Notes under the pieces: generated by a model
Told to the model about the DNA's origin: nothing
Databases searched by the model: none
The model's input: only the letters and a program-made list of their open reading frames with translations
DNA from: a bacterium
GTDB lineage: Bacteria > SM23-31
Direction: 5' to 3'
Assembly (NCBI GenBank): GCA_965221205.1
Contig: OZ244870.1
Coordinates: 1,038,065 to 1,102,064, forward strand
Length of the DNA stretch: 64,000 bases
Translations under genes and position numbers: made by a program
In this document: one piece after another, positions 56 through 40,133 of the stretch
Layout of the letters: the number at the start of each line of letters is the position of its first letter
Numbering within the stretch: position 1 is the stretch's first letter

Positions 56-2674
56 GTGTCGAACACATTACTGTTCAACGACCTCAAACATTCCGTAAGC
101 GGATGGCGGCGGTGCGGGTATCCTTGTGATGATTACCCGCTGATCGGCTCTATACTCGACTACCAAACGGAAAAGCACGAAGAAAAGCACGAAGACCGTT
201 CAACCCAGAAGTTTCTGCGCGATCCCCAGTTCCTTGCCCTTGAAGTGTACTGGTATGTCCGCATTGTGTTGAAAACCCCTCATATCATAGACCTTTACAA
301 ACATTACTACACGGAAGACAAAAAAGGCTTTTTTGATGCGATTGGCGTTTCCATACCAGGAGACGCTTTGGATTATGTGGAAATAGACGGGGTTATTAAA
401 AAAATCAAGGAAAATGAAGATTTTGTAAAAGAGAAGAAAATTCAAGCCCTGCATGAAGCCGCGAAACTGGGTTATCCAAGCTATATCCTCGCCCTGGCGA
501 TGGGCGCGGGTAAGACCGTGCTGATTGGCGCGATTGTTGCCATCGAATTCGCCATGTCCATGCGTTATCCCGAAGGCGAAATCAGGTTTATGAAAAATGC
601 CCTTGTCTTTGCTCCTGGCACAACCATTATCGAAAGCCTGCGGGAACTCAGCGGTATGCCCTACGAGAAGATTTTACCGCCCGACCTGAACCGTGATTTT
701 CTCGCCAATTTGAAGATTGAGTTTCCGGGCAAGGAAAAAGACATACAGGCACAGAGGGGCAGCAGTTATAACCTGATCGTCACGAATACCGAAAAAATCA
801 GTCTGCGCGCCAGACAGCGAAGCAACCAGGCACGACTGGCTTTTGAGCGCGAGGAAGTGCAGGCGAACCTGCTGCTCCAAAAAATCGCGAGTCTGCCGGG
901 TCTCGGAGTGTTTTCGGACGAAGCGCATCACACATACGGCAATACCTTCGACAAGTTAAAGCGAGTGCGGGAAACGATCAACTACATACACGATGAGCAG
1001 CCAATCGTTGCGGTCGTCAACACAACGGGAACGCCTTATTACAAGAAACAGCTCCTGAAAGAGGTGATTCTCTGGTATGGGCTTGGAGACGGCATCAGCG
1101 ATAACATTCTCAAAGACCTCAATAACGGGATTCACCAATACGACATCGGGGAGCAGTCGGAGCAGGGTGTGTTCCAGGATATCATCACGGTGTTTTTTAG
1201 CAGGTACGGTGATGTGTCGCTTCTCAATGGCGCGAAGGCGAAGATTGCTTTTTACTTCAAGACGCAGGAGCATCTGGAAACTTCCCGCGCCTTTATTGGA
1301 AGGGCAATGGCGGAGATGGGCGAGGATGTCTCCCAGATACTTGTGAACACGCAGAAATCCGGTGTCGCCGAGGTTGATGAATTCAGGAGACTGAACAATC
1401 CGACAAACCAGAAGCGGGTTATCCTGCTGATTGGCAAGGGTGTAGAAGGATGGAACTGTCCAAGCCTGTTTGCATGCGCCCTCATCAAGGAGCAGACGTC
1501 AAGCAGCAACTACGTTTTGCAGGCGGCGACACGATGTTTGCGGCAGGTTCCGGCAAACGCGCATTCGGCGAAGATATTCCTGGATTCCGGCAACGCAAAA
1601 ATTCTTGACAGGCAGCTGCAAGACAACTTCCGCACCGACCTTGACCGACTGAGTGCCGAAGCCGGGGAAAAGGAAACGGTCACCCTGCACATCCTCAAGA
1701 CGCAGCTCCCCACACTGGAAATCACCCGCACCGTGAAAAGAGCGGTCAGAAAGGGAACGCCATACGTGAACATTCACCTGGAAAAACCAACAGCGGAGGG
1801 CCCGCCCCCTATATTGCGCGGCATATTCACGCCCGATTTTAGCGGACCGGGAGAAATACTGATGCCCACGGGCGAAATGAAGGAGCTGCCCGCGGGAGAG
1901 CGCATTGTGGATTGTCATTCCGCCGCCTGGAAAATAGCCTCACGATACCATGTGCCGGTTATGCCGGTCCTTGAACAACTCAAACGTCTTTATCCAAACA
2001 GGGAAATGCCCCACGAGCATTTGTACGGGCTGTTCCGGCAGGTGGAAAAACAGGGAGCGAACTACGAAACAGTGGAAGACAAAATAACCGAAGCGATGGC
2101 ATTGATTCGGGTGCGGGATGAGAACGGAAAGGATAGTTTTGAAAAAGAAAACGATGTGTATGTTCACCGCTTGCGGGTGCTGAAACGGACTCATGACCGA
2201 ATGAAAGATAATGGTCTGTTGGCCGAAAGTGAGGAATATGAGGATAAGCACGATGTGAGTTTCCACTACACTCCCTACAACTTTGACAGCGGGCCTGAAC
2301 GTTCCTTCTTTCGGCAGATTTTGTCCGTGCTCAATGCAGCCCCCGATGATGTGGAGGCGTTTTTGTTCACGGGCGGACTCACAGACCAAAAGAAAACCGA
2401 CTTTCATTTTGAGTATCTCGGCGAGGACAAACGCTACCATCGCTATTTTCCCGATTTTGTGATTGTGAAGAAAACGGGCGAGTTTTATATTATCGAGATT
2501 AAGGCGGAGAGTGAGCGGGGAGATAAAACAGTGGAGGCAAAAGCCAAGGCAGTGGAACGGCTGCGAAATTTGCAGCCGGATAAATTCAAATATCAGGTGG
2601 TCTATACATCAACGACCATAACCCCACAGAACATCAAGCCCGTTACGGGCTGGATAAACGTACAGGAGAATTAA
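56..2674 (+). CDS. res: Type III restriction enzyme Res subunit (SF2 helicase with C-terminal nuclease-like region)
   Basis: 872 aa ORF with GTG start after in-frame stop at 35-37; Walker A-like ALAMGAGKT, DEAH-like VFSDEAHH, C-terminal PD-(D/E)xK-like FPDFVIV..EIKAE; homologous in architecture to the second Res at 33598-36411. Confidence 0.8.
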   Translation: MSNTLLFNDLKHSVSGWRRCGYPCDDYPLIGSILDYQTEKHEEKHEDRSTQKFLRDPQFLALEVYWYVRIVLKTPHIIDLYKHYYTEDKKGFFDAIGVSIPGDALDYVEIDGVIKKIKENEDFVKEKKIQALHEAAKLGYPSYILALAMGAGKTVLIGAIVAIEFAMSMRYPEGEIRFMKNALVFAPGTTIIESLRELSGMPYEKILPPDLNRDFLANLKIEFPGKEKDIQAQRGSSYNLIVTNTEKISLRARQRSNQARLAFEREEVQANLLLQKIASLPGLGVFSDEAHHTYGNTFDKLKRVRETINYIHDEQPIVAVVNTTGTPYYKKQLLKEVILWYGLGDGISDNILKDLNNGIHQYDIGEQSEQGVFQDIITVFFSRYGDVSLLNGAKAKIAFYFKTQEHLETSRAFIGRAMAEMGEDVSQILVNTQKSGVAEVDEFRRLNNPTNQKRVILLIGKGVEGWNCPSLFACALIKEQTSSSNYVLQAATRCLRQVPANAHSAKIFLDSGNAKILDRQLQDNFRTDLDRLSAEAGEKETVTLHILKTQLPTLEITRTVKRAVRKGTPYVNIHLEKPTAEGPPPILRGIFTPDFSGPGEILMPTGEMKELPAGERIVDCHSAAWKIASRYHVPVMPVLEQLKRLYPNREMPHEHLYGLFRQVEKQGANYETVEDKITEAMALIRVRDENGKDSFEKENDVYVHRLRVLKRTHDRMKDNGLLAESEEYEDKHDVSFHYTPYNFDSGPERSFFRQILSVLNAAPDDVEAFLFTGGLTDQKKTDFHFEYLGEDKRYHRYFPDFVIVKKTGEFYIIEIKAESERGDKTVEAKAKAVERLRNLQPDKFKYQVVYTSTTITPQNIKPVTGWINVQEN

Positions 2675-2676
2675 AC

Positions 2677-3066
2677 ATGAAAACGTAAAAGTTATTTATC
2701 AGTCATTCTTGGACGTATTCGGACGACTATGAGCGACTTAAGAAGTTACTATAGGAAAGAAGCTACTTTCATTTCAGAAAATACTCTGTGGAAAGTGATG
2801 AACCTAAAAATAATTGGGAAGAGATAGAACGTAATATAAAGTGGTCTACCGTCGTTGTCGTTATTGCAGGTGTGTATGCCAGTTATAGTTCATCAATAAA
2901 AAGAGAAGTGCGGTTGGCTAAACAAAATTCCAAGCCTACACTCGCTATTATTCCCTGGGGGAGTAACAGGACATCAGATATAAAAAATAAATGTGATGTT
3001 GTTGTCGGAGGGTACACCGACAGCATTGTCTCGGCAATAAAGGAATTGGCAAATGGATCAAGATAG
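2677..3066 (+). pseudogene. TIR-like (DUF1863/ThsB-like) domain protein interrupted by two in-frame stop codons
   Basis: Single reading frame from ATG 2677 to TAG 3064-3066 reads MKT*KLFISHSWTYSDDYERLKKLL*ERSYFHF..VVVVIAGVY..LAIIPWG; in-frame TAA at 2686-2688 and TAG at 2752-2754; FISHSW start and later hydrophobic core resemble TIR-like/ThsB architecture. Confidence 0.45.
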
Positions 3067-3508
3067 ACAGGAGCTTTTGGAAATCTATAAGCTTCACGCC
3101 GAACTTGCGGACAGGGTGAGCCAGAGACGGGAGGGGGCAAACAGGCTTTATGTAAGTCTGCTCGCGGGCATTTTTATTCTCCCTGCCGCTTTTCTAAAAT
3201 ATGGGACGGAAACCATTCCTGATTGGGTTATTGTGCTGGTAGCAGCTATTTTAGGCGGTTTTCTTTTTTTGTCGTGGTGTCTTATTATTCGTTCCTATTA
3301 TCGATTGGATAGGAGGAAATGCAAGGTATTGTGCGAGTTGGAAAAAAAACTTGTCTACCCTTTTTTCAAGCGCGAACGGGAGTTACTGGAAGAAGAAAAA
3401 AATATAAATAAATCTTGGGAGCTTATAGAGATTGAACATTTTCTTCCTTTTGGTTTCTTTATGGTTTTGCTGTACTTGTTTGTGTTTGGTGTCATCTATT
3501 TTTTTTAA
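3053..3508 (+). CDS. Small two-TM membrane protein, SLATT-like effector candidate
   Basis: 151 aa; N-terminal charged helix then two hydrophobic helices (LYVSLLAGIFILPAAFL and WVIVLVAAILGGFLFLSWCLII) plus hydrophobic C-terminus; ATG overlaps the end of the TIR-like ORF by 14 nt. Confidence 0.5.
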   Translation: MDQDRQELLEIYKLHAELADRVSQRREGANRLYVSLLAGIFILPAAFLKYGTETIPDWVIVLVAAILGGFLFLSWCLIIRSYYRLDRRKCKVLCELEKKLVYPFFKRERELLEEEKNINKSWELIEIEHFLPFGFFMVLLYLFVFGVIYFF

Positions 3509-3512
3509 TCAA

Positions 3513-5360
3513 ATGAACCCTCCCCTCAAAATAACCCCAGTAAAAGGCCGTCCGATGCTTCATTGGGTTGGCAAGAAGCCGCTCGATGTTGTCCGGCATT
3601 ATCCCGCGCAGTTGTGTGAAAGTGTTGGCGTTGAGAATCCACCTGTTGAGCCGTCTTATGCGGAATTCATCGAGAGCAACGCCAACCTGCTTTTTCACGG
3701 CGACAACAAGGAAATCCTGTCGTCTCTTTTGATCGCAGGGTTTCGGGGAAAGGTGGATTTAATCTACATCGACCCGCCGTTTGATTCCGGTGCGGATTAT
3801 GTCCGCAAGGTGAGGCTGCGCGGAGAGTCCGAAAGACTCGACGGTCAGGGCCACACTTTTCTGGAACAGGTGCAATACGAGGACATCTGGGCGAACGATA
3901 ACTATCTGCAATTCATGTATGAACGTCTGATTTTGATGCGGGAATTGCTGAGTGACACAGGAAACATCTTTCTGCAAGCTGATGACAAGAAAGGACACTA
4001 CTTGAAGATTCTTCTCGATGAAGTTATGGGAGAGAAAAATTACATCAATGACATTATTTGGCGCAAAGGAAGAGAAGGAGGCGGAGGCACGAAAGTTAAT
4101 CCTCCTCTGCCAACAGAATACCAAAACATCTATCTGTATGCCAAAAAACGCGACTCTCGAAAGTGGAACGCTCCACGCGGTCCCTATAACAAAAGCACTC
4201 TAAGTTCTTTGAAGAAAGATGAGAAGGGATGGTTTTATATGCGCGGTCGGATGGGACGACAGCCAAGACAATGGGAAATTGAAGCAGGCGTTGCGAGAAA
4301 AACTTATGTTAGTGAAAATCAGAACGAGTCAAGAGAGTCAGTTATACAAAGATTAACAACATTGGGAGGAAAGTTTGTCCTAATCGGGGACGTTTGGGAT
4401 TCTTATCTTATCAAAAATTCAACAAAAACCAATTACCCTACAGAGAAACCTGAGGCGTTGCTTGAGATTGCCATAAAATCGGGTACTGATGAAGGTGGAA
4501 TTGTTTTGGACTGCTTTTGCGGTTCCGGCACCACCGCTGCCGTTGCCGAGAAACTGGACCGCCGCTGGATCATGGCGGACATGAACAAGGGAGCGATTCA
4601 GACAACCATCAAAAGGTTGCAGGGTGTTATGGAGAAGAAAAGCAGCGACCTTGTAGAGAAAAACGGGCGCGGGCTTATTCACTATCGGGTGAACAACTAC
4701 GATTACGATGCCGCTGACCAGAATGAACTCAAGAAAATTATCGTTTCCAAATACGGCGTTCAGACAGACCGCAAGGATCTGTTTTTTGACGGAGTGGTTG
4801 GCGACGGGCAACTGGCGAAAATTGTTGACCTGGACAAACCGCTGACGCAACTGGACATTCAGATTATCAAGGATGAAATCGCACAGAACCGACCGGATGA
4901 GATGCGGGATATTACGGTTTTTTGCAACGGCTCGGAACTGGGAATTATGGGAGAACTTGCCAGGGAGAAAAACCCAATCAATACAATCACCGTCCGCGAC
5001 ATTCAACAGGATGGAATGATCACAAACCAGCCCGCCGAGGCAGAGGTTGAGATCAGCAAAAGCGGCGAAAGGGTGAAGGTGAAAATTGTCGATTACATCA
5101 GCCCCGCCATACAGGCCCGGCTGGAGAGTGACCGCACCATTTTTGATGAACGGATTGACGACTTCCGGGCGCAGATTGACTGCGTGCTCATCGACACCGA
5201 TTACAACGGTGAACATTTCAGAATAGTGGAAAGCGACCTGCCGGAGAAAAAAACCGATTTCATCAGGGCTAAGTATGAATTCACGCTGCCCCGTGCTGGC
5301 GCGAAAGTGGCGGTGAAAATCGTGGATATGCTCGGTGAGGAAGTTTTGACGGTCAAATGA
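3513..5360 (+). CDS. mod: Type III DNA methyltransferase Mod (beta-class N6-adenine type)
   Basis: Motif IV IYIDPPFDSGADY precedes motif I LDCFCGSGTT; start taken at ATG 3513 (MNPPLK) just after the stop of the upstream ORF at 3506-3508, rather than the ORF-track start 3432. Confidence 0.8.
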   Translation: MNPPLKITPVKGRPMLHWVGKKPLDVVRHYPAQLCESVGVENPPVEPSYAEFIESNANLLFHGDNKEILSSLLIAGFRGKVDLIYIDPPFDSGADYVRKVRLRGESERLDGQGHTFLEQVQYEDIWANDNYLQFMYERLILMRELLSDTGNIFLQADDKKGHYLKILLDEVMGEKNYINDIIWRKGREGGGGTKVNPPLPTEYQNIYLYAKKRDSRKWNAPRGPYNKSTLSSLKKDEKGWFYMRGRMGRQPRQWEIEAGVARKTYVSENQNESRESVIQRLTTLGGKFVLIGDVWDSYLIKNSTKTNYPTEKPEALLEIAIKSGTDEGGIVLDCFCGSGTTAAVAEKLDRRWIMADMNKGAIQTTIKRLQGVMEKKSSDLVEKNGRGLIHYRVNNYDYDAADQNELKKIIVSKYGVQTDRKDLFFDGVVGDGQLAKIVDLDKPLTQLDIQIIKDEIAQNRPDEMRDITVFCNGSELGIMGELAREKNPINTITVRDIQQDGMITNQPAEAEVEISKSGERVKVKIVDYISPAIQARLESDRTIFDERIDDFRAQIDCVLIDTDYNGEHFRIVESDLPEKKTDFIRAKYEFTLPRAGAKVAVKIVDMLGEEVLTVK

Positions 5361-11607: not shown

Positions 11608-11610
11608 CAC

Positions 11611-15236: not shown

Positions 15237-16307
15237 ATGCTAAAAGAAGTGATTTATATAAAACAGTTGTTAAGTATGACCACTGCAATTCTGCTTTTTC
15301 TGGGAGTCCTGCTCAATAGTGGTGAGCTTAACGCTCAGGATAGGTCATTACTGGACAGAATTCCGGAAGAAGCGTTTGCGGTTGCATCGCTCAACCCGAA
15401 CAGCATTGTCGAATCGGCAATGCTGAACTATCTCATTGAAGGAGATTCGACGTTGGAGGAGATGTACGAACACGCCATCAATGCATTCGAAGGTCTATCC
15501 GGTGTAAAGATGGATGAGTTGAACAGCATCACCTTTTTTGTTGCCAGAGTCGGGAGTGAAAACAGAAATATAGACTGGAATATCGGAGCAATCGCTTCTG
15601 GAAATTTCAGTGGTTTGAATTACAATATTCTCATGAGCACCCATACTGTTCCTAAACAAGTCGTAGAGATAAACGGATATGAGGTGCATGCACTGTCTGC
15701 ACCAGATAGAAATAAAAATCACGATGACGATTCAGACGAAACACACGGAAGTGCTATGGATAGTGATGATGAAGATAAAGTAGTCTATGTGTTTTTTGAT
15801 GATGAAGAAGTTCTTGCAGCTAACTCCCGCGAATTAATGGAACAGCTTCTCCGGCTCAAACGCGGAAACGGCTCCAGTTTCCGGAATAACAGCAAATTTA
15901 CTGACCGCTTTAATACAACTCGGAATAATGCGAGTTTCTCGGTCATCGTTCCCGATGGTAAAGTTGTTGACGAATTCATCAATGAACACAGAGATGATGA
16001 TACAAACATTGCTTCTCCGCTGTTTGCGAATACGAGTCTTATTGGTAGTGCGGATATTTCGGAGAATATCGATTTGAATCTGCAGGTCCATAACTCTGAT
16101 GGTGAGAAGCTCGATCATATGTTCAATTTTGCTAACGGCATAAAGAGCCTTGCACTGCTGGGTACGATGCAAGAACCGGAACTAAAAGACCTGATCGCTC
16201 TGGTTGGTCTGAACAAGCGGTCCGGCTATATCGAACTCGATGCGCAATTGACCCTTGAAGATATCAAAAGGTTGAAAGACTTACACAAAGATTCGAACAG
16301 AAATTAA
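15237..16307 (+). CDS. Hypothetical secreted protein (paralog B)
   Basis: 356 aa with signal peptide; paralog of 12295-13362. Confidence 0.5.
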   Translation: MLKEVIYIKQLLSMTTAILLFLGVLLNSGELNAQDRSLLDRIPEEAFAVASLNPNSIVESAMLNYLIEGDSTLEEMYEHAINAFEGLSGVKMDELNSITFFVARVGSENRNIDWNIGAIASGNFSGLNYNILMSTHTVPKQVVEINGYEVHALSAPDRNKNHDDDSDETHGSAMDSDDEDKVVYVFFDDEEVLAANSRELMEQLLRLKRGNGSSFRNNSKFTDRFNTTRNNASFSVIVPDGKVVDEFINEHRDDDTNIASPLFANTSLIGSADISENIDLNLQVHNSDGEKLDHMFNFANGIKSLALLGTMQEPELKDLIALVGLNKRSGYIELDAQLTLEDIKRLKDLHKDSNRN

Positions 16308-16368
16308 AGTAAACCCATACCAGATTAAATAACCTGTCTCCTTGATACAGTTCCATCATTGTATCACC

Positions 16369-16411
16369 AGCCTCCACGATATATTGTTCATGATATATTG
16401 TTATGGAGGCT
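16369..16411. repeat. Inverted repeat (8 bp stem AGCCTCCA/TGGAGGCT) enclosing two direct GATATATTGTT repeats
   Basis: Read directly: stem 16369-16376 pairs with 16404-16411; 27 nt loop contains GATATATTGTT twice; sits between the ABC operon and the low-GC Type II R-M cassette. Confidence 0.4.
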
Positions 16412-16540
16412 ACAAGAGTTCTGATTTTCAATTAATGTTAATAAATATTGATTGACTTATCAAAAATGTTTAGTAATTTTAGAAGAATCCGAGTTTACTG
16501 TTATTTCATTAAATATAGGATGTAATTTTGGAGTAAAATA

Positions 16541-23993: not shown

Positions 23994-24610
23994 TTATTCA
24001 CCCTCTTCATATACCGGTGGAGGTGTGAAAAACAGGTGGCACTGGAAGCAGTCTTTCTTATCCTCGTCTTCCACATCGGTCAATGTTTTATTAAAGCGAG
24101 GATTAAACTGACCGTTATGGCAGACACCGCAGTCATTAAACATAAAAGGCCAATTGGTTTTATATTTGCCGACAAATTCGGGATCACCGTGTGTGATTCC
24201 GCGATGGTATTCAACACATTCGATTTTTTCGCGCTCGACATGGGTCCGATGTGCCATGATGAGTCCTTGTCCCTTAAGAGTATTATCAGGTAGATCGTAC
24301 CAGCCCATTTCATTAAAATAAAGAATGGAGTTGTGGCAGCCCATACAGTTTTCCGTAGAAATCGGAAGCGGTTCCTCGTGGGGACTCAGTTCGTTACCTC
24401 GGATAATTGCCACCATAAAGGTCGTGTACTCCCATAACCTGCGTCTTGAGTGCGCCTTTGATTCCCGGTTCGATATGACCAGTCTACACAGTTGATGTTT
24501 TGATGGGTTCCTTTTGCCCAGGTTACTTTCTGATCAACATGGCATGAACTGCAGACCATATTTGTTTTAAAAAATATTTTTTTGCAGGAATTTTCATGGT
24601 CTTGCTGCAC
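23994..24610 (-). pseudogene. Multiheme cytochrome c (NapC/NirT/NrfH-like), frameshifted
   Basis: Heme motifs CSSCH, CMGCH, CGVCH, CFQCH split across ORFs 24386-24610 and 23994-24416; a third frame restores the expected CVDCH at the junction. Confidence 0.5.
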
Positions 24611-29037: not shown

Positions 29038-29049
29038 CAGGAGTTTCGT

Positions 29050-31718: not shown

Positions 31719-33597
31719 AACTTATTTATTACATAGTACGACAACAAATAATCGATGATACCAGAATTAAATTCCTTGTGGGGCAAAGATAAATTTTATA
31801 AATTTGAATATTGTGTAGAATCTATTGAGTAACTTATTGGCAAGCTACATATCAATTATGACAAGGAATACTTTATGACGAACGAGCTCACTTTTAGACT
31901 TCGTTGTCTCTGGGCAGTTTGCGCACTAAAATGGTGGTGACATTTAATTTTTCCTAAAAGCATCACAATTTCTGATATACCATGGAAACCATTGGAAGGC
32001 TATTCCAAATTCTAAGCGAAAAAATAGTAAATTCCCTTTTAACGGTAGTTACCCTCATAAAATGATCCACTGATTAACGTTATACAATATTGACCATAGT
32101 TGCCGGGAGTATGTACATTAAATTTGGCATCACAGAATAGCAACAATATCTTAATACATTTAAATCATATCTATTTTTCTCAAAGAACCTCAGAGTTTTC
32201 ATACTACAAAGAGAGATCAATAAATTGAATATCGTTTTTTCAATTTTACATAGAACAATTGGGAGGATATATCATATAAATCATCTCTTTTTTCGCAGTC
32301 AAGACCCCGTTCATAGGCAGTTTCCGAATCATACGTATAAAGCGATTTGAAATGATACCTGTTACTCCGTATCCGAAATAGTATCTTAATTCTTTTTTTG
32401 TCTGCTTCGCTCTTCAGAAACCGGATCGATTATCCCATGCTTTTCACAAAAAATAGAAAATGAGAGTACTGCTGCAAGAACGAGACTCCTCCCGATACTG
32501 CCAATTTTTTTAAAGTAACCTATGGACTGTTTCAAAAGGTCCTGAGCGAAGAAGACCGTGACCGCCTCAAGCAGGACCAGGTTCCCAATCGTCATGCCGC
32601 CATACACGGCTTGGTGGTCTATTCCTCACCGCAGAACAGTTTGAATGCGATTTTCATAGCCGATTACATTTTTCGGATTGTTACTCCCGCCATGTTCCCT
32701 CCATCACCTCGGCAATGATGCTCCCGCACCGATCAGCATTGCATAAAGATATCGCCAATCGAATCTCTCCTGCAATACCGATTTGCAACTCCTGAACCCT
32801 TGAAAGCCTGTCCGGGGCTGGAGGGTTGCGTAACCGCTCCTTTGTGCAACCCCTCCCCGGACGGGAAGCAAAACTGAGGTAATCTGTAAGGCCATGAAGA
32901 ATCCGGGATGTTATCACCACTTGCGCGTGGACTGGGTAGGAAAGTCGTCCACCCAGTCGATCGCGCTGTGCGGCGTCGAGGGTGAAGACATCGGGGCAGG
33001 ACAGGCACTCTGCCCCGACTGCTGTGGGTTGGGACCGGAGAGCCTACGCGAGTTATTTGACAAGCTCCGGGTGACAGCCCTTCCGCGGTAAAAGCGAAGA
33101 TGGAGGTGCTTCGAAGTCTGGGGGTGCAGGTGGATATGCAGGATCGGTCGCAATTCAACTAAAAGAGTGTCTCTACGGCCCTAGGAGGCCCTGCTTACCT
33201 CCTAAAAGCCCCTCTTTTTCTGTGTTTCCGATTTCTCTGGTTTCTACTTCCTGTTCTTCCACAGAAGTAGTCGAGGTTTTGCGCGAGTTGAAGAAGATTA
33301 AGCTGGCCTGGCCGAAGCTGAACTACGCGACGGCTTCGGGCGTCTTGATTCTGCATCCCTTGACACCGATCATCGCGCCGTTAGATCAAGGCCAGCTAGG
33401 CCGGCGGCCGCTCATCTCCCCGTTTTCAACGCAGGGATCGCCCCTGACGCCTCCGTACCCGATTCATCTTTAGATGATTTCGGCCGGCATCGTCACGAAA
33501 TTCTTCTCGGTATATCGGGATACAGGGCATGGACCTATGTCGTTGCGATCGAACCACATCGCGTTCTGCAACCATACTGTCGTCGACCGCTCGGCTT

Positions 33598-36411
33598 TCA
33601 AGCGCCGCCAATGCCCGCGTGGCGTGAAAGAATGCTCTGAATATCACCGGGGGCTCTCGATATATCCCCTGCCCAGCGGCCAAAGCCGCCATGCGCGTTG
33701 ACGGCGGTGATCCATTCGTCGAGAAACCGGCGTTTGGTTCGGTCCTGTTCGCTGTCCTGTCCCTTGGTTTCCAACACGAGTATGTCGCCGGACCTGAACC
33801 GGATGAGGAAGTCGGGACGGTACTTCCGCACCACGCCGCGATGGACGTAGAACACTTCGAAGCCCAGGTGATCGTTTTTCACCCAGGCGGCGACCTCGGG
33901 GGCGTGATCGAGGGCAAAGGCTTCCGACGATTCCCAGGTGCTGTCATAGACGCAGAAATTGATATGGCTGCGCGCCGTGGGCTCGCAGGGCCTGCCGGTG
34001 TACCATGTCCCCATGTCGCCGGTTGAACGGATGGGCCGGTCCCGGTCGAACACCGGCTCCAGACTCTCGGTGTTCTCGAAGCGGATGGCTTCCCAGATAT
34101 GCTGGACCACCTTGGTCATGTTGAGCGTGATGATGAGACGGCGCTTGAGATCGTCGCGGAGGAATAGTGCAGGCGTGATGCTGATTCTGTCCGAACGGAT
34201 GAATTGATCGACCAGCCGTACCAGTTGGGCCAGCAGGAATGCTTTGCCTCCCCGCCAGTTCTTTTGCATTTGGTCGTAAACGTCCCGCGCGGTCTCAAAG
34301 ATAATCCGCTGTGTCCGAAACTCCCGCGCCAGATTCTCCAAGTCTATAGCCTCGATCTTCGTCACGTCCGGTTTGCCGGCGACGATTGGGGCAAGCTCCG
34401 CGATTCTTACGGTCCTGCCAACATCGAGTTCCAGGCTTGCCACCTTGTTCCAATCCAGGGAGAGCTGCGGTCGGTATACGTGGTCGATGCGGATCACGTT
34501 CGGCCAAGAGATTTCGAAAGCCGCTTTGCCCGTTACCGGCTCAATAGCGGTCTTTGGCGTTGGCGGCGGTGGAGGGCCGCTCTCTCCACCTTCGTGGGGC
34601 AGAAAAGTGAAGGGCACGCCGAAAATATTGACGTACTCCGGCTCGAACAAACCGTTGTTCGGGTTCACATCGTAAGATGTGCGGCGCAGGCCGCGTCCGA
34701 CGACCTGTTCACAGAGAAGCTGGCTGGTGAACGCGCGGAGGCCCATGATGTGTGTCACGGTCTTGGCGTCCCATCCCTCGGAAAGCATCCCGACGGAGAT
34801 CACATTCTGGATCAGCTCGCCCGTTTTCCCAGGTTGGCCCACGGTGTTCACCTGCGAGCGCAGCAGCTCGGCTTGCTGTTTTTTGGTTAGCTTGCGTGAG
34901 GGGCCGCCGTTCGCAGCTTCTTCGCTCTCGCCAGCGCCGATCTCCGCGATCGGCTCCTCGGCGGCCTCGGCCGCGTCAAGTACCCTTGAGTCGATATGAA
35001 GGGTTCGCGCCGGGTCGCAAAGCTCGCTGATACGGACTCTGCTGTGGTCGAATGCGTACTTGATCCGGGCTGCGGTCTCGGTGCGATTGGCGACGGTGAT
35101 CATCACTGGCGGGGTTTTGGACCCGTCCTTTCTCCATTGCTTAGATGTCTCGCGCCAGTCGAAGCCGAGAAGGCAGTAGCCATTGACCACCAGGTCCGGC
35201 AGCGGTTCTTCGGGCTTGGCCCGCCGGTTTAAGTCGTCCTTGACCTCGGCATCGTTGTAGATGTGGTAGAGGCGGGATTTGTAGGTCGTGACGTCAGGTA
35301 CCGCATCGTCGCGAATCACGACGCGTGGGGTCTTGACCAAACCGGACTCGATGGCGTCGTTCAGGCCGAAGTCGCTCACGATCCAGCCGAACAGCGCCTC
35401 CTCGGAACTCCGTTTACCCGATGGCGCGAAGGGCGTGGCGGAGAAGTCGCAGCAAGCGAGAATGCCCCGCGCCCTGTCGATCCGATCCAGGCCGCCAACC
35501 CACTTGGTCGCTTCCTCGATTTCATCCCTGGCAACACCTTTGACCTTGGATTCGGCGGGAACGCGCCAGGCGTGATGCGCTTCGTCATTGATGACAAGAA
35601 TGTTCCGGGCGTTCGCCAAGTCGCCCAGAACCTCGCGGACATAGGCTTCGTCGCTCTTGGATCTCCGTTTATCTACGCTGCGTTTTCCGGCAATCCTCTC
35701 ATCGGTCTCCCAATTGAGTGCGTGCCAGTTGCGGACCACGACCTTGCCTTGGCGCAGCTTGTCGAACAGGGACGACGGAACGACGTGGAAAGCTTTGTAG
35801 TAGTTCTCCGCATGAGACGGTTCCAAGACGGCCAGACGGTTCTTGACCGTGAGTCCCGGAGCGATAACCAGCACGTTTCGGGCGAATCGCGCATCCTGGG
35901 AATAGGTGACCTTGTTCAGGATATGCCAGGCGATGACCATGGCCATGACGACGGTCTTGCCCGAGCCGGTCGCCATCTTTGCGCACAACCGCCCAATCGG
36001 CCCGCCATCGGAAGGGATGTCAACGCCAATTTTCTCGGCCGCTGACGCTTCGGCAAGCCAGATCAGCGTCTCGACAGCCTCCAGTTGGCAGAAGAAAAAT
36101 CGACGGTTATCGAACTCCTCCGGGTTCGTCCAGTGCTCCAACAGCCGCTTCGTAATTCCCGTGACACCCGGATACCCGGCTCCACGCCACGCCCGTACAC
36201 GCGGACGAATCCGGTTGACCAGGGGAATCTCGACGAAATGGCCCGGATCATCGAACGATCGGGAGCCCTCCGAGGCAATGACGTATCCGGCCGGCCGGCG
36301 GCCTTGCGCACGGTCGAAAAGGCGCGTCTGGCGGTCGTAGCTCCAGTGTTGGCCCGGCTCCTCGTAGGGAGAGTTGATAATCAGGCGATCGATGGTTGTT
36401 TGCGCCATCAT
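33598..36411 (-). CDS. res: Type III restriction enzyme Res subunit
   Basis: Walker A ATGSGKTVV, DEAH box VINDEAHH, helicase C-terminal motifs; start ATG 36411 (MMAQTTIDRLIINSPYEEP) overlaps the hepT stop (ATGA); inside the GC-rich island. Confidence 0.85.
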   Translation of the reverse strand: MMAQTTIDRLIINSPYEEPGQHWSYDRQTRLFDRAQGRRPAGYVIASEGSRSFDDPGHFVEIPLVNRIRPRVRAWRGAGYPGVTGITKRLLEHWTNPEEFDNRRFFFCQLEAVETLIWLAEASAAEKIGVDIPSDGGPIGRLCAKMATGSGKTVVMAMVIAWHILNKVTYSQDARFARNVLVIAPGLTVKNRLAVLEPSHAENYYKAFHVVPSSLFDKLRQGKVVVRNWHALNWETDERIAGKRSVDKRRSKSDEAYVREVLGDLANARNILVINDEAHHAWRVPAESKVKGVARDEIEEATKWVGGLDRIDRARGILACCDFSATPFAPSGKRSSEEALFGWIVSDFGLNDAIESGLVKTPRVVIRDDAVPDVTTYKSRLYHIYNDAEVKDDLNRRAKPEEPLPDLVVNGYCLLGFDWRETSKQWRKDGSKTPPVMITVANRTETAARIKYAFDHSRVRISELCDPARTLHIDSRVLDAAEAAEEPIAEIGAGESEEAANGGPSRKLTKKQQAELLRSQVNTVGQPGKTGELIQNVISVGMLSEGWDAKTVTHIMGLRAFTSQLLCEQVVGRGLRRTSYDVNPNNGLFEPEYVNIFGVPFTFLPHEGGESGPPPPPTPKTAIEPVTGKAAFEISWPNVIRIDHVYRPQLSLDWNKVASLELDVGRTVRIAELAPIVAGKPDVTKIEAIDLENLAREFRTQRIIFETARDVYDQMQKNWRGGKAFLLAQLVRLVDQFIRSDRISITPALFLRDDLKRRLIITLNMTKVVQHIWEAIRFENTESLEPVFDRDRPIRSTGDMGTWYTGRPCEPTARSHINFCVYDSTWESSEAFALDHAPEVAAWVKNDHLGFEVFYVHRGVVRKYRPDFLIRFRSGDILVLETKGQDSEQDRTKRRFLDEWITAVNAHGGFGRWAGDISRAPGDIQSILSRHAGIGGA

Positions 36412-36602
36412 GCAGTCTCCGGTAGCACCAGCGGTTCGATGAGGTTGATGAGACGGGGAATGTCCTGTTGTGCGGTCTTCCACACATGCTTCAGGTCAAC
36501 CTCGAAATAGGCGTGTACGAGGCGATGTCGCATCCCAGCGAACTCCACCGCACCCCGCGCTGCCAGCAGCATGTCGAGCAGACAGGCATCGTCATGCCGC
36601 AT
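36408..36602 (-). CDS. HEPN-domain toxin (HepT/DUF86-like), short form
   Basis: R-x4-H-x-Y motif in GMRHRLVHAYFEVDLKHVW; start overlaps the mntA stop. Confidence 0.55.
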   Translation of the reverse strand: MRHDDACLLDMLLAARGAVEFAGMRHRLVHAYFEVDLKHVWKTAQQDIPRLINLIEPLVLPETA

Positions 36603-36903
36603 AGATCGTCTCGGCGGATTGGAGGATTGCGGCACGGCGAATGTAGTTTCGGCTCTGTTCGACCGCCGTGCGTTCGAACAGGTCTACCTCCCGGCCGAGT
36701 ATCCGAGCCAGATCGGCCTGCATTCGCGCCATGTCCAGAAGTGTGTGGCGCGCTTGTTGCTCGAAACGCACCAGTACATCCACATCGCTTTCCGGTCCGA
36801 AGTCGTCCCGTAGCACGGAACCGAACAGCGACAGTTCGACGATCCGCCAGCGTTTACAAAAGTCGGCTATCTCGTCTCGCGGTGTGTCGATATGTACACT
36901 CAT
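36592..36903 (-). CDS. Nucleotidyltransferase (MntA-type antitoxin)
   Basis: GS-x9-DxD motif LFGSVLRDDFGPESDVDVLV; start taken at internal ATG 36903 immediately after the upstream stop at 36906-36908. Confidence 0.7.
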   Translation of the reverse strand: MSVHIDTPRDEIADFCKRWRIVELSLFGSVLRDDFGPESDVDVLVRFEQQARHTLLDMARMQADLARILGREVDLFERTAVEQSRNYIRRAAILQSAETIYAA

Positions 36904-36905
36904 GC

Positions 36906-37748
36906 CTATAACACTTGGTTCGCGTCGACATTGAAGCCGACACTCTTTAGCTCCCGAATAAGTCTTAGCTTCCAACCATCCGAGCCGTCCAACGGAATGT
37001 AAATGACTCCATCATAGTCCGAGGGCGTCTCTACGTTACCTTTCACCAAAGTGCAGACTCGCTCTCGACCGAGTTTGCCAATGAAGTACCCGAATTCGAA
37101 AATCACGTTCTGTCTCGCCCGTGGCTTTTGATTCTTCTTGTCGTCCGCAAGCGCGCCCACGTCGTCCGGGGTCAGCAGGACCACCGCGAACCCAACTTGC
37201 GCATGTTCCTCAAACTTCTCGATGATCGTGCGGCCCTTATTCGGTTGTTCGTGCAGGATTACCGGTTCAAGATCCAGCCTTTCTAGGAATCTTGCAACCG
37301 TTCTCCGAGCAGATTCGTCGTGGCCATGGATGACGAAAACTCTGTTACTGCTCGATCGTTTGTCGATTCGTTCCGAGTCAAGCGCTGAAATGTCACTTTG
37401 ATCTATGGGTTGCGTTGGCGTCTGGTTTTCATCAGACCAATACTCCTCGATCTCCTCGATCATGGATTCGAGTACTGCGGCCGCTGATTCCAAGCCTTTC
37501 ACATAAACTTCCTGGCGTTCTGACTCAGGCGGCTCAAAGTAGGCAGGGGCAGGAGAAAAACGGATATTTTTGAAGTCTCCAATGTGGGCCGACTTGCTCT
37601 CAAACGTGTTGGTGATAGCGACCTCTGTGTTTCTTTGCCACTTATCAAACTCAGGTGAGCGGTACTTTAGGTTTTTTAATTTGGGTATTGCATCCAATGC
37701 TCTCCGCAGGCGCTCCAGACCCTTGGCTTTTATTGGTCGCGCCATCAC
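36906..37748 (-). CDS. TIR-like nucleotide-binding protein (COG4271/PF10137-like C-terminal domain) with unknown N-terminal domain
   Basis: C-terminal block RVFVIHGHD..FAVVLLTPDD..ARQNVIFEFGYFIGKLGRERV..PSDYDGVIY matches the TIR-like family pattern recalled from memory; start overlaps the Mod stop. Confidence 0.6.
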   Translation of the reverse strand: MMARPIKAKGLERLRRALDAIPKLKNLKYRSPEFDKWQRNTEVAITNTFESKSAHIGDFKNIRFSPAPAYFEPPESERQEVYVKGLESAAAVLESMIEEIEEYWSDENQTPTQPIDQSDISALDSERIDKRSSSNRVFVIHGHDESARRTVARFLERLDLEPVILHEQPNKGRTIIEKFEEHAQVGFAVVLLTPDDVGALADDKKNQKPRARQNVIFEFGYFIGKLGRERVCTLVKGNVETPSDYDGVIYIPLDGSDGWKLRLIRELKSVGFNVDANQVL

Positions 37749-40133
37749 TCCACCTCCACCACTTTTAAGCTCTCGATGCCGCGGTCGTCGACGATCTTGA
37801 CGGTGATGCGCCGGTGTCCGCCGACTTCGAAGGGGAGGGAGGACGTCCCGCGATAGGCCTCAACCAGGTCTGTGTCGATCTCGGCCTTGAGATTCCGGGC
37901 GAGTTTTGCCCAGCCGTCCCTGCTGCCCGCCATGGGAAAAAACACCTGGCGGGGAAACAGGCTGCGCCCGTCATAGTCCGGATCGAGCATCCACATAGCG
38001 ATCTTGTCCGAGCCGCCCGATTCCACGTTGCCGGTCTTGGTGTTGTAATAGTCGAATCCTTGGACCGAGACGCGGAACTTGCCCTGGTCTTCGCCTTCCT
38101 TGATCCGCTCGACTTCCATGTCCGGCTGGCCGATCAGCCAGAAGCTCTCGTTGCTTGTCCGCTTCTTCTTGAGGTCGTCGGTCAGCAAATCGGCGTTCAT
38201 CTGCACTTTTAACAAGGTGGCGCCAGGCCAGCGGGTTTCGTCGATGTCCTTGGGACGCTTCGGGATCGAACTGGAAGGCCGCAAAGACGATAACCTTGGG
38301 TCGTGGGGCAAGACTTTGTGCCTCCTCGATGGCGCGTGCCACCTGCCGCTGCTCCAGCGGTGCATGATCCGGCCCAAACGAGACCACGAGCCGTTCCGGA
38401 TTGCGGGTGGTAGCGGGGTCTTGAAAGCCGTCCGTCCCCGCATCGCCGGGCCGCGTCTCGCCCTCGGCGTGCAGCCATCGGGTTGCGGGCAGCGGTTCCA
38501 GCCGAGCAAATGAGATTCGCTGCCCGTCCTTGCCGCGAATGCCGGTCTTGAACAACTCGTCGCGCCAGTCGCCTTGGCGCACGGTCGGTCCAGTACGCGC
38601 CACGGAGGTGTCTGCCGGCAGTGCCTCGGACTCTTCGATGTCGTCCAGGGGCTTCACCGTTGGCGCGGGAACCGCTTCCACGGTGAACGGTCCGGTGACA
38701 CGGGCTTTGCGCCGGTTGATCTCCGGTTGATCGTAGAGCGTGGTCTCGTTGGGCGGTTCGTCATAGCCCAAAGTCTTCGCCGATACGGTGGCGACGCTGT
38801 GGTAACGAAAACCGGCCCCAACTCCTTCGTCAGGATGGGCCAGTTTGTAGTAGTGATAGTTCGCCGTCATGAGGCGCTGCTTGGCCAAGACTGTCGCGAC
38901 GCGCGATGTGTCGCAGGTGATCCATCTTCTGCCCCATTGCTCGGCGACGTGGGCAGTGGTACCGCTGCCGCAGGTTGGGTCAAAGACCAAATCGCCCGGA
39001 TCGGTGGTCATCAGGATGCAGCGCTGAATCGCCTTGTTAGCGGTCTGGACCACATAGTGCTTGGCACTGGGCGACATTGGTGCTGCCCAGATGTTGTTGA
39101 TTGGTCTCCCCGGAACCTCATCTTCATACCGTTTCCACATCAGTGACGTCTGGTTCCCCAGGGCTTCCAACCGACCTAGTTCGGCGAGTCGGTCTATTCC
39201 CTCTTTGGAAATGCGCCATTGGCTGTCCCTGCTACAACGAAAGACGCGACCGTCATATTCATAGGGTTCGGAGCGCGCAACCGTGGAAACACCCTGCGAT
39301 TCAAGGGGCATACGGCGATAAATGCGCCCGCCCTCCGGCAAGTGCTTGTCTGGGTCGAAGCGTTCTTCGGGGGTGGGTTTACGGCACTGGCCGTCAGGCA
39401 GTTCGACACTCACATATGAACTGAAAAACTCGATCACCTCGGCCCGCGTGAGCGACTCATACAATTGCCGGTATTTCACAAGCCCTCGGTCTCTGGCATA
39501 CCACAACAGATAATCCGCAACTTGGGGCAAGGTCTTAGCAGGACTGTTGCCGGTGGTCGCGTAGGAAATGGTTGCCATCCGGTTCTCTGCGCCGAAGATG
39601 TCGTCCATGACTAGGCCGACGCGGTGGATATTTTCGTCGCCGATCTGCACGAAGACACTGCCGCTCTCATGCAGCAGCTCGCGCGCCAACAGCAGGCGGT
39701 CGCGCAGATAGGCGAGATACGAATGGATGCCGAGTTCCCAGGTATCGCGGAAGGCGCGGATCGTCTCCGGCTCCTGGGTCAGGTCCTCGTCCCTGCCGTC
39801 GGTCACGGTGCGCTGGTTGACGAATGGTTGGAAGTTCGAGCCGTAGCGGATGCCGTAGGGCGGGTCGATGCGCTCATGGACGTGCAGGGATACGGTGGGG
39901 ACTTCGAACGAGGTGTGCTCGTCCTTCCCGGCCCAGACGAGCTGCGGATCCAGGTGCGGATCGTAAGCGTAGGTTGTCTTGCCCGCATCCTTGTCGGTCT
40001 CCGGTGTCACCAATCCGACAGGCGGGTTGTTCACACGCTCCTTGCCAGTGTGCGTGTAGTTTTCAACCTCACGCTTTTTTCTGTTCTTCGGTCCCGCTAT
40101 GTCGTTCCCCTTAACTTCGGTCTCTGTCTCCAA
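37745..40133 (-). pseudogene. mod: Type III DNA methyltransferase Mod, apparent +1 frameshift near 38252
   Basis: ORF 37971-40133 carries DPPY, NIWAAP and FDPTCGSGTT motifs, then turns into Arg-rich nonsense after ..FQFDPEA; ORF 37745-38509 continues in another frame with a Mod-like C-terminus; junction at a GGG run (plus 38252-38254). Confidence 0.7.

What the first reader, a model, noticed from the sequence alone, without database searches (positions are those of the whole stretch)
56..40133. Both Type III R-M loci independently carry a TIR-like gene between res and mod
Locus 1 (DUF1863/ThsB-like plus two-TM protein) and locus 2 (COG4271-like TIR-like plus HepT/MntA) differ in composition, gene order and TIR-like subtype, yet share the theme of a TIR-like nucleotide-signalling or NADase candidate nested inside a Type III system. 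Two independent occurrences within 40 kb argue for a functional association rather than chance.
Basis: inference. Interest (0 to 1): 0.8.

Follow-up and report, generated by a model that had tools for sequence, protein, structure and literature searches.

The report
Defence genes nested inside Type III restriction operons
Two unrelated Type III restriction-modification operons in this window each carry a small TIR-type accessory defence module between their two subunit genes; this extends the known "defence gene embedded in a defence operon" pattern to Type III hosts, is specific to two lineages rather than general, and both copies here are partly decayed.

Summary
Both loci are Type III res/mod operons with a TIR-type gene between the subunit genes.

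- The locus-1 ThsB-like gene is a pseudogene. It has two in-frame stop codons, identical in three assemblies, and a 7-residue deletion.
- Locus-2 mod has a ~72-residue in-frame deletion and a frameshift.
- "HepT" is a 64-residue remnant.

Each insert is a self-contained module found elsewhere without any R-M system. One is ThsB-like + 8xMP membrane protein, adjacent in about 50 of 80 metagenomic loci. The other is PF10137 TIR (PADLOC candidate PDC-S35) + MntA + HepT.

The link to Type III is lineage-specific:
- In the Res2 (BPTD_3080) subclade at ≥79% Res identity, the TIR gene lies between mod and res in 4 of 6 independently sampled cassettes. That is all 4 with an intact mod.
- The TIR gene co-diverges with Mod and Res as tightly as they do with each other.
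- More distant Res2 relatives carry other cargo or none.
- Six of six distant Res1 relatives carry nothing between res and mod.
- Most TIR homologues sit in unrelated contexts.

This matches published "guilt-by-embedding" (Hma, BREX, DISARM, Type I R-M), extended here to Type III hosts. A general TIR–Type III functional partnership is not supported. A lineage-specific one is not excluded.

The parts
56..2674 (+). res1: Type III restriction subunit (872 aa), apparently intact
   Evidence: Pfam ResIII 1.2e-5 and a weak C-terminal TnsA-like nuclease hit. GAGKT, DEAH and PD...EIK motifs are readable in the translation. The same 872-aa gene is called in L001.
2677..3066 (+). ThsB-like (DUF1863/PF08937) TIR pseudogene. 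In-frame TAA at 2686-2688 and TAG at 2752-2754, plus a 7-residue deletion.
   Evidence: Translation. Pfam ThsB_TIR 8.2e-7 on the 92-aa C-terminal ORF. Stops identical in L001 and L002. Alignment with intact homologues.
3053..3508 (+). 8xMP small membrane protein (151 aa), the conserved partner of the ThsB-like gene; intact
   Evidence: Pfam PF24838 5.2e-25. A ThsB-like ORF is adjacent in about 50 of 80 metagenomic loci. No PADLOC hit.
3513..5360 (+). mod1: Type III methyltransferase (615 aa), apparently intact
   Evidence: Pfam N6_N4_Mtase 6e-43. PADLOC MTase_III 1.5e-57. DPPF and FCGSG motifs in the translation. Start fixed at ATG 3513.
37745..40133 (-). mod2: Type III methyltransferase, disrupted. 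In-frame ~72-residue deletion (junction about 39861-39869) and a +1 frameshift at the CCC run 38252-38254.
   Evidence: tblastn of the L005 Mod (846 aa, ~82% id) gives three pieces in two frames and skips query residues 80-151. DNA comparison. PADLOC MTase_III PDLC03632 matches both ORFs.
36906..37748 (-). PF10137 (CAP12/PycTIR-type) TIR-like protein, 279-280 aa, intact. N-terminal helical domain plus C-terminal TIR domain. Its start overlaps the mod stop.
   Evidence: Pfam 2e-42. PADLOC PDC-S35 2e-91. AF2 model pLDDT 74.6; best Foldseek matches are the TIR domain of TIR-STING. A profile search hits Cap12 and PycTIR with the conserved R(D/Q)NVxFE(F/L)G motif.
36592..36903 (-). MntA-type minimal nucleotidyltransferase (103 aa from ATG 36903), intact. 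Its start overlaps the TIR stop by 4 nt, by coordinates.
   Evidence: Pfam NTP_transf_2 2.2e-14. PADLOC PDC-S09 6e-24, aligned from residue 25 of the TTG-started ORF. 103-aa orthologues in L166 and L182.
36408..36602 (-). HepT remnant (64 aa). The N-terminal ~20 residues are fused to the C-terminal RX4HXY segment; the middle of the domain is deleted. Its stop overlaps the res start.
   Evidence: Sequence. Pfam HepT-like 2e-11 covers only profile positions 82-118 of 120, whereas L005 has a full HepT at 1.8e-26.
33598..36411 (-). res2: Type III restriction subunit (937 aa; NCBI 'BPTD_3080 family'), apparently intact
   Evidence: Pfam ResIII 8.5e-9. GSGKT, DEAH and PD...ETK motifs in the translation. 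78-98% identical homologues are abundant. Family name from plasmid annotation.
40596..41760 (-). Degraded P4-type primase fragments flanking the GC-rich locus-2 island, probably a remnant of the element that delivered it
   Evidence: Pfam Pox_D5 1.5e-10 (40596-40913) and Toprim_2 6e-4 (41338-41760). The GC step falls at about 33.0 and 40.2 kb.

Best explanation
Each locus is a Type III restriction-modification operon whose mod-res gap has been used as a cargo slot for a self-contained accessory defence module.

- Locus 1 carries a Thoeris-like pair. By analogy with Thoeris systems that have transmembrane effectors, the ThsB-type TIR would sense infection and make an NAD-derived signal. The small oligomeric 8xMP membrane protein would be the membrane-damaging effector.
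- Locus 2 carries a PF10137 TIR protein (PADLOC candidate PDC-S35), probably an NAD-consuming effector, followed by an MntA/HepT nucleotidyltransferase/RNase toxin-antitoxin pair.
- The cargo is co-transcribed and translationally coupled with the R-M genes, and moves between genomes together with them.
- It probably acts as an independent second layer (abortive infection) behind restriction, not as part of the restriction mechanism.
- In this genome both operons are decaying: the ThsB gene is dead, mod2 is broken and HepT is gutted.

SHOWN: gene content, synteny conservation, co-divergence, autonomy of the modules elsewhere, and the lesions.
INFERRED: enzymatic activities, co-transcription, and the layered-defence role.
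For: - Domain assignments.
- Autonomy of the modules: the TIR-MntA-HepT trio sits between dapA/dapB and an SF1-helicase/PLD gene, with no R-M, in L006; the same arrangement is inferred for L011 from matching ORF layout and phmmer hits. Most of the 80 TIR2 homologues have non-R-M neighbours. ThsB-8xMP pairs occur in about 50 of 80 metagenomic loci in varied defence or mobile contexts.
- Cargo-slot behaviour: the same Mod2/Res2 gap holds ABC ATPase pairs, DUF2806, a second nucleotidyltransferase, DUF5131, DUF3800 or nothing. Relatives of locus 1 add IS fragments, a ClpP/NfeD-like gene and DUF1828.
- Linkage: overlapping stop and start codons. The cassette is present in several phylum- or class-level groups. 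Mantel correlations of TIR with Mod and Res equal that of Mod with Res.
- Precedent: embedding in Hma, BREX, DISARM and Type I R-M, with 96.7% of embedded genes co-oriented with the host system; the PDC models derive from such embedded genes.
- Thoeris systems with oligomeric transmembrane effectors are experimentally validated.
- Decay.
Against: - Within the ≥79% Res2 subclade the TIR gene is present in every sampled cassette that has an intact mod (4 of 4). It is missing only where mod is broken or gone. That is tighter than a freely exchangeable cargo model predicts and hints at dependence on Mod.
- No experiment exists for PDC-S35, for 8xMP, or for either cassette.
- Co-divergence cannot separate physical hitch-hiking from functional coupling.
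- The samples are small: n = 6 Res2-conditioned metagenomic loci and n = 10 plasmids.
- The PF10137 TIR lacks any recognised sensor domain, so how it would be activated on its own is unknown.
Confidence: 0.6

Rival explanations
1. Functional integration in the Res2/BPTD_3080 lineage. The PF10137 TIR protein is an integrated third component of this Type III subfamily. For example, it could be a suicide effector held inactive by the Mod/Res complex and released when a phage anti-restriction protein disables the enzyme, as the PrrC anticodon nuclease is with EcoprrI.
For: - TIR is present in 4 of 4 Res-sampled cassettes with an intact mod and in 7 TIR-sampled GTDB cassettes from several phylum- or class-level groups.
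- It always sits directly after mod with overlapping stop and start, except where an ABC ATPase pair intervenes.
- Mod-TIR distance correlation is r = 0.91 (0.63 without the outlier), at least as high as Mod-Res.
- The conserved N-terminal helical domain has no known function and could be a docking domain.
- The PrrC precedent is cited.
Against: - Close TIR relatives work in loci without any R-M: L006, L011 and L013 lie inside the same clade.
- The family was picked up embedded in other host systems (BREX, DISARM, Type I) and as a single-gene candidate.
- Res2 relatives at 40-67% identity lack it.
- In the window the TIR gene is intact while mod is broken, the opposite of what strict dependence predicts. 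If the TIR were a toxin restrained by Mod, it should have been lost first.
Confidence: 0.2
2. Neutral genomic-sink juxtaposition. The mod-res gap tolerates insertions, defence genes land there by chance, and there is no selective benefit. Two TIR-type inserts in one window are a coincidence, helped by a community rich in such cassettes.
For: - Cargo between Mod2 and Res2 is heterogeneous.
- Both window loci are decaying.
- IS elements and fragments lie in or near relatives.
- The same metagenome samples (ERZ25072076, ERZ25067264) hold relatives of both cassettes in other genomes.
- The sink hypothesis is discussed.
Against: - Same-strand, overlapping-codon organisation is conserved across several phylum- or class-level groups.
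- The TIR remains intact and co-diverges over a range of 45-74% identity.
- A neutral passenger would not be retained as an open reading frame for that long.
Confidence: 0.1
3. Addiction or stabilisation. The embedded genes (MntA/HepT, and possibly the TIR as a toxin) mainly act as a toxin-antitoxin-like module that stabilises the mobile R-M cassette after transfer, rather than defending against phage.
For: - MntA/HepT is an established toxin-antitoxin pair (established knowledge). It lies next to res in 4 of 6 Res-sampled cassettes, counting one remnant.
- The cassette is clearly mobile: a GC-rich island beside primase debris.
- HepT, the toxin, is the component destroyed in the window, as expected once a cassette is no longer maintained.
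Against: - R-M systems are already self-stabilising.
- L170 and L171 lack MntA/HepT altogether.
- The TIR family is found by defence-context methods.
- This does not explain locus 1.
Confidence: 0.1

Closest known systems
Genetically embedded defence systems ('guilt-by-embedding'; Payne et al., bioRxiv 10.1101/2024.01.29.577857), with PrrC inside the EcoprrI Type I R-M as the classic case
   Same: Accessory defence genes are nested between the genes of a multi-gene defence system, on the same strand and probably co-regulated. The cargo is variable. The locus-2 genes match PADLOC candidates derived from such embedded genes (PDC-S35, PDC-S09).
   Different: That study analysed Hma, BREX, DISARM and Type I R-M hosts, not Type III. 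Here one cargo gene (the PF10137 TIR) is nearly fixed within one Type III subclade and co-diverges with the host genes.
Thoeris systems with transmembrane effectors: type II (TM-Macro), type V (DUF2270/ThsF) and type VII (SLATT/ThsH) (Yirmiya et al., bioRxiv 10.64898/2025.12.03.692087)
   Same: A ThsB-type TIR gene is paired in a two-gene operon with a small multi-helix membrane protein predicted to oligomerise. The pairing is conserved in about 50 of 80 loci. Tandem ThsB paralogues occur, as in some Thoeris loci.
   Different: The partner is PF24838 (8xMP). It has no detectable match to Macro, DUF2270 or SLATT. It has no PADLOC model and was not found in that paper's text or supplements. It is untested, and the window's ThsB copy is a pseudogene.
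CAP12 (TIR-STING / TIR-SAVED) and PycTIR effectors of CBASS and Pycsar
   Same: Same TIR subfamily (PF10137). The R(D/Q)NVxFE(F/L)G motif with an invariant Glu is conserved. The best structural matches are TIR-STING.
   Different: There is no STING, SAVED or cyclic-nucleotide-binding sensor domain. Instead there is a ~100-residue helical N-terminal domain of unknown function. There is no cyclase gene. The neighbouring nucleotidyltransferase is MntA-type.
HepT/MntA (HEPN/MNT) type VII toxin-antitoxin systems
   Same: An MntA nucleotidyltransferase is followed by a HepT RNase with overlapping genes. The pair is intact in relatives such as L005, L006, L166, L169 and L182.
   Different: In the window HepT is an internally deleted 64-residue remnant. 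In this lineage the pair usually follows a TIR gene and lies inside an R-M operon.
Canonical Type III R-M (EcoP15I-type mod-res operon)
   Same: A Mod of the N6_N4 methylase class plus a Res with an SF2 helicase and a C-terminal PD-(D/E)xK nuclease. Distant relatives on plasmids have directly adjacent or overlapping genes.
   Different: One to five extra genes lie between the subunit genes. Locus 1 has the order res then mod. Locus-2 mod is disrupted.

Membership tests
Type III restriction-modification (locus 1) | Mod subunit: beta-class N6/N4 DNA methyltransferase with DPPY/F and FxGxG motifs | tested here: met
   Pfam N6_N4_Mtase 6e-43 and PADLOC MTase_III 1.5e-57. DPPF and FCGSG are readable in the translation.
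Type III restriction-modification (locus 1) | Res subunit: SF2 helicase motifs plus a C-terminal PD-(D/E)xK nuclease, in the same operon as mod | tested here: met
   ResIII 1.2e-5 and a TnsA-like hit at 4e-4, below Pfam's cutoff. GAGKT, DEAH and PD..EIK motifs. Same strand as mod, 839 nt apart, with two genes between.
Type III restriction-modification (locus 2) | Intact Mod, which Type III enzymes need for both methylation and target recognition | tested here: not met
   A ~72-residue in-frame deletion and a +1 frameshift relative to the L005 Mod. The frameshift is in a 3-nt C run and could be an assembly error. The deletion is unlikely to be one.
Type III restriction-modification (locus 2) | Res subunit with helicase and nuclease motifs | tested here: met
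   ResIII 8.5e-9. Motifs in the translation. 78-98% identical full-length homologues. Annotated 'BPTD_3080 family restriction endonuclease / type III R subunit' in plasmids.
Type III restriction-modification (both loci) | ATP-dependent cleavage of unmethylated sites and hemi-methylation of the recognition sequence | not testable with these tools
   Needs biochemistry or methylome data.
Thoeris (locus-1 insert) | Intact ThsB TIR-domain protein | tested here: not met
   PF08937 matches only the C-terminal half. There are two in-frame stops and a 7-residue deletion. Intact orthologues exist in L163, L165 and L083.
Thoeris (locus-1 insert) | Adjacent effector gene of a recognised Thoeris effector family | tested here: not met
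   The partner is PF24838 8xMP. No Macro, SIR2, SLOG, caspase, DUF2270 or SLATT hit even at E ≤ 5. No PADLOC hit.
Thoeris (locus-1 insert) | Conserved TIR + effector two-gene operon | tested here: met
   A ThsB-like ORF directly adjoins 8xMP in about 50 of 80 metagenomic loci and in L163 and L165.
Thoeris (locus-1 insert) | Phage-triggered production of an NAD-derived signal that activates the effector | not testable with these tools
   Requires experiments.
PADLOC candidate PDC-S35 (locus-2 TIR) | Full-length match to the PDC-S35 HMMs | tested here: met
   PDLC05005 2e-91 over residues 9-279, and four further PDC-S35 models.
CAP12 / PycTIR effectors (CBASS, Pycsar) | PF10137 TIR domain with the conserved catalytic-motif Glu | tested here: met
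   Pfam 2e-42. Profile hits to 9lmq, 7un8 and 8jsj with the NVxFE(F/L)G motif aligned; E218 is invariant in 34 homologues. That this Glu is catalytic is from memory.
CAP12 / PycTIR effectors (CBASS, Pycsar) | Fused cyclic-nucleotide sensor (STING, SAVED or CNB) and a neighbouring cyclase | tested here: not met
   The N-terminal 1-103 is a helical domain with no Pfam hit. Structural matches cover only the TIR part. No cyclase gene is in the operon.
HepT/MntA type VII toxin-antitoxin | MntA nucleotidyltransferase | tested here: met
   NTP_transf_2 2.2e-14 and Polbeta 1e-9.
HepT/MntA type VII toxin-antitoxin | Full-length HepT (HEPN) RNase toxin | tested here: not met
   A 64-residue remnant matches only profile positions 82-118 of 120.
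Embedded defence systems (Payne et al.) | Genes nested between genes of a known multi-gene defence system, on the same strand | tested here: met
   Both loci. Relatives.
Embedded defence systems (Payne et al.) | Host system is one of those analysed there (Hma, BREX, DISARM, Type I R-M) | tested here: not met
   The hosts here are Type III R-M. The paper's only mention of 'type III' refers to DRT type III.

The most novel reading that the evidence does not exclude
In the BPTD_3080-type Type III R-M subfamily, the PF10137 TIR protein is a true third component. Its conserved N-terminal helical domain would dock on Mod/Res. The TIR NADase would fire when restriction is blocked, for example by a phage anti-restriction protein, making this a built-in 'guard' of a Type III enzyme analogous to PrrC-EcoprrI. 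Separately, ThsB + 8xMP would be an undescribed Thoeris type with a new membrane effector family.
Probability: 0.2. Interest if true: 0.75.

Novelty: new variant of a known kind. Interest (0 to 1): 0.45.

Why it matters
If the lineage-level link holds, Type III R-M operons join Hma, BREX, DISARM and Type I R-M as places to look for new defence genes.

- The Mod-TIR-(MntA-HepT)-Res cassette is widespread in environmental bacteria. It would be a tractable model for asking whether embedded effectors merely ride along or guard the host system.
- The ThsB-8xMP pair is a cheap candidate for a further Thoeris type.
- For this genome specifically, the practical message is that both systems are partly dead and should not be annotated as functional.

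Tried and rejected
- Stop-codon recoding for the ThsB gene: rejected. res1 and 8xMP end in TAA and the ThsB frame itself ends in TAG.
- Sequencing error for the ThsB stops: rejected. Three assemblies are identical.
- Phase-variable repeat at the mod2 frameshift: none present, only a CCC run. An assembly error cannot be excluded, because no second assembly of locus 2 was found; exact look-ups failed.
- A full HepT between MntA and res2: rejected. There are only 195 nt, encoding a remnant.
- One shared defence island for the two loci: rejected. The 28 kb between them is housekeeping-like.
- My greedy ORF caller performed badly on high-GC loci, so homology coordinates were used instead.
- My first Mod1 query was one base out of frame, and the iterated Mod HMM became contaminated by chimeric Mod/TIR reading frames. 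The search was redone with the correct frame and cross-checked with Pfam.
- Scan of viral contigs with Res1: no relatives.
- Rfam on the whole window: no hits.
- Literature searches found nothing for 8xMP/PF24838, PDC-S35, TIR with HepT/MntA, or COG4271/PF10137 with Type III R-M.
- Source-organism names were not recoverable.
- Remote relation of 8xMP to DUF2270 or SLATT: no signal.

Full report
**1. What is in the window**

Locus 1 lies on the + strand. It reads:
- res1, 56-2674
- a ThsB/DUF1863-type frame, 2677-3066
- an 8xMP membrane protein, 3053-3508
- mod1, 3513-5360

Pfam and PADLOC support each assignment: ResIII; ThsB_TIR 8e-7; PF24838 5e-25; N6_N4_Mtase 6e-43 and MTase_III 1.5e-57.

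Locus 2 lies on the - strand inside a ~59% GC island, against 42-46% GC nearby. It reads:
- mod2, 40133-37745
- a PF10137 TIR-like gene, 37748-36906 (Pfam 2e-42; PADLOC PDC-S35 2e-91)
- an MntA-type nucleotidyltransferase, 36903-36592 (PDC-S09 6e-24)
- a HepT remnant, 36602-36408
- res2, 36411-33598

Successive genes overlap at their stop and start codons.

The two loci are unrelated:
- Res1 and Res2 cross-match only at 1e-5 to 1e-7.
- The TIR families are different.
- The gene order is opposite.

Ordinary genes and a tRNA-Gln fill the 28 kb between them. Degraded P4-type primase fragments flank locus 2.

**2.

*The locus-1 TIR-like gene is dead.*
- Read from its ATG, the frame gives MKT*KLFISHSW...LL*ERS....
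- The TAA replaces a conserved Tyr. The TAG falls at an E/K/N/D position. Seven residues are also missing relative to intact homologues.
- Both stops are identical in two other assemblies, L001 and L002.
- Neighbouring genes use TAA and TAG as real stops, so recoding is unlikely.

*mod2 is damaged.* Compared with an 82%-identical intact Mod (L005):
- it lacks about 72 residues in frame, between two IDP repeats;
- it has a 1-nt insertion in a CCC run that splits it into two frames.
- The frameshift could be an assembly error. The deletion is unlikely to be one.

*HepT is a remnant.* It is a 64-residue fusion of its N-terminal ~20 residues to its C-terminal RX4HXY segment.

*What still looks intact:* res1, mod1, 8xMP, the PF10137 TIR, MntA and res2.

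**3. What the inserts are**

*ThsB-like + 8xMP.*
- A metagenome scan seeded with the 8xMP family returned 80 loci. A ThsB-like ORF directly adjoins 8xMP in about 50 of them.
- In one locus (L158) the partner is instead a protein with a weak match (3e-7) to the locus-2 PF10137 TIR family.
- This is therefore a conserved two-gene module.
- Its architecture resembles Thoeris systems with transmembrane effectors: type II TM-Macro, type V DUF2270 and type VII SLATT.
- 8xMP has no match to those effector families and no PADLOC model. It was not found in the Thoeris survey's text or supplements.

*PF10137 TIR + MntA + HepT.*
- The AF2 model (pLDDT 74.6) shows a confident helical N-terminal domain (residues 1-103), a disordered linker and a C-terminal TIR fold.
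- The best PDB matches for that fold are the TIR domain of TIR-STING.
- A family profile hits Cap12 and PycTIR with the R(D/Q)NVxFE(F/L)G motif conserved.
- In L006 the trio stands alone between dapA/dapB and a helicase-PLD gene, without any R-M system; L011 shows the same ORF layout and phmmer hits.

**4. Is the association with Type III more than chance?**

| Sample | Result |
|---|---|
| TIR-conditioned: 80 GTDB species-representative loci | 7 share the full Mod2-TIR-MntA-(cargo)-Res2 cassette. By record title they come from Nitrospira/Nitrospirales, Alphaproteobacteria, Bryobacterales, Gammaproteobacteria and Chloroflexi. |
| Same sample, split by TIR identity | 6 of 12 loci at ≥55% identity are cassettes, against 1-2 of 68 below that. 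|
| Same sample, immediate upstream neighbours | 8 of 39 scorable neighbours are methylases; the rest are diverse, including a tRNA synthetase and a chaperonin. |
| Res-conditioned: 6 independent Res2 homologues at 79-86% identity | TIR lies between mod and res in 4, which are all 4 with an intact mod. It is absent where mod is frameshifted (L169) or gone (L182). |
| Plasmid relatives of Res2 | 67% identity: an ABC ATPase pair. 50-51% identity: nothing (two plasmids). 40% identity: DUF3800. |
| Plasmid relatives of Res1, 28-39% identity | res and mod directly adjacent in 6 of 6. |
| 8xMP-conditioned metagenomic loci | Type III genes near at most 5 of 80. |
| Nearest relatives of locus 1 | Three of four keep res/ThsB/8xMP/mod (L083, L163, L165). 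The fourth (L164) has an IS element in place of res and ThsB. |

Other ThsB-8xMP neighbours are recombinases, Type I/IIG-like genes, DUF4062, DndB-like genes and transposases.

**5. Co-divergence**

Across the window plus the seven GTDB cassettes, Mantel tests on pairwise distances gave:

| Pair | r, 8 taxa | r, without outlier L028 |
|---|---|---|
| Mod-TIR | 0.91 | 0.63 |
| TIR-Res | 0.68 | 0.67 |
| Mod-Res | 0.61 | 0.61 |

- All tests have p ≤ 0.008.
- The TIR has therefore been co-inherited with the two bona fide subunits as tightly as they are with each other.
- It evolves faster: 45-74% identity, against 62-88% for Mod and 72-92% for Res.
- On the TIR tree, seven of the eight cassette copies fall in one clade, with a few R-M-less members nested inside; the L028 copy branches outside it. 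The module can therefore leave the operon.

**6. Interpretation**

The best reading is that each locus is a Type III operon whose mod-res gap serves as a slot for self-contained accessory defence modules. These modules are co-expressed and co-transferred with the host system.

This is the published embedding pattern. The PDC-S35 and PDC-S09 models derive from genes embedded in BREX, DISARM or Type I R-M. Here the pattern extends to Type III hosts, which that study did not analyse.

It is not supported:
- the cargo is heterogeneous;
- most homologues of both TIR families lie outside Type III contexts;
- one of the two TIR genes is a pseudogene.

A lineage-specific functional coupling in the BPTD_3080 subclade remains open. 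The 4-of-4 presence with an intact mod, and the co-divergence, are notable. Against coupling, close TIR relatives exist without any R-M system, and in the window the TIR has outlived mod.

**7. Limits**

- Samples conditioned on Res are small.
- Many metagenomic contigs are short.
- Gene calls in the loci were made by homology rather than by a gene finder.
- No activity has been tested.
- The source organism could not be named.
- Many of the closest cassette hits come from MAGs whose isolate names resemble sponge-microbiome studies. That reading of the isolate names is mine, from memory, not a tool result.

Noticed in passing
window 2677-3508; L083-L162, L163, L165: ThsB-like (PF08937) + 8xMP (PF24838) is a conserved two-gene module, adjacent in about 50 of 80 metagenomic loci. 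It has no PADLOC model and no literature hit. It is a candidate undescribed Thoeris-like system with a new small membrane effector. Some loci (L083, L163) carry two tandem ThsB paralogues.
   Followed up: partly
L158:1686-3239: Here 8xMP is preceded by a protein with a weak match (3e-7) to the locus-2 PF10137 TIR family instead of a ThsB-type TIR. This hints that 8xMP can pair with different TIR subfamilies.
   Followed up: no
window 33000-40250 and 40596-41760: Locus 2 is a sharply bounded GC-rich island (~59% against 42-46%) next to fragmented P4-type primase ORFs (Pox_D5, Toprim_2). This looks like a decayed integrative element that delivered the cassette.
   Followed up: partly
window 31720-33590: About 1.9 kb between the amidohydrolase genes and res2 has no convincing ORF and no Rfam match. 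The GC content rises across it.
   Followed up: partly
window 36408-36602, 38252-38254, ~39861-39869: There are three separate lesions in one operon. Two are in-frame internal deletions (HepT, and Mod between two IDP repeats) and one is a 1-nt insertion. The antitoxin-like MntA, the TIR and Res stay intact.
   Followed up: partly
L003, L008, L010, L026, L167, L171, L178, L181, L182: The Mod2-Res2 gap holds varied extra cargo: an ABC ATPase (AAA_15/AAA_21) with a small partner of 182-232 aa, DUF2806, a second nucleotidyltransferase, a Tle1-like fragment, DUF3800 and DUF5131. This makes it a rich source of candidate defence genes.
   Followed up: partly
L174, L175, L176, L177 (plasmids of Tunicatimonas, Nitrosomonas, Blastomonas, Vibrio): Distant Res1 relatives sit in a recurrent three-gene set, 'ATP-dependent DNA helicase - DNA methyltransferase - DEAD/TnsA-like nuclease', on plasmids, two of them typed as conjugative. 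This is a different architecture from a plain Type III pair.
   Followed up: no
L163-L164, L167-L168, L171, L002 (samples ERZ25072076, ERZ25067264): The same metagenome samples contain relatives of both cassettes in several different genomes. L163 and L164 are syntenic with the window around locus 1 but show different decay states: a res remnant, IS replacement, or a split mod.
   Followed up: partly
window 16000-18000, 21000-24000, 54000-57000: Three low-GC stretches (31-36% against ~45%) hold short or unannotated ORFs. One lies beside tRNA-Gln (21895-21969). They may be further islands.
   Followed up: no
L166:4424-7516: In one cassette the Mod is 1030 aa and carries extra DUF559 and MTES_1575 (endonuclease-like) domains.
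   Followed up: no
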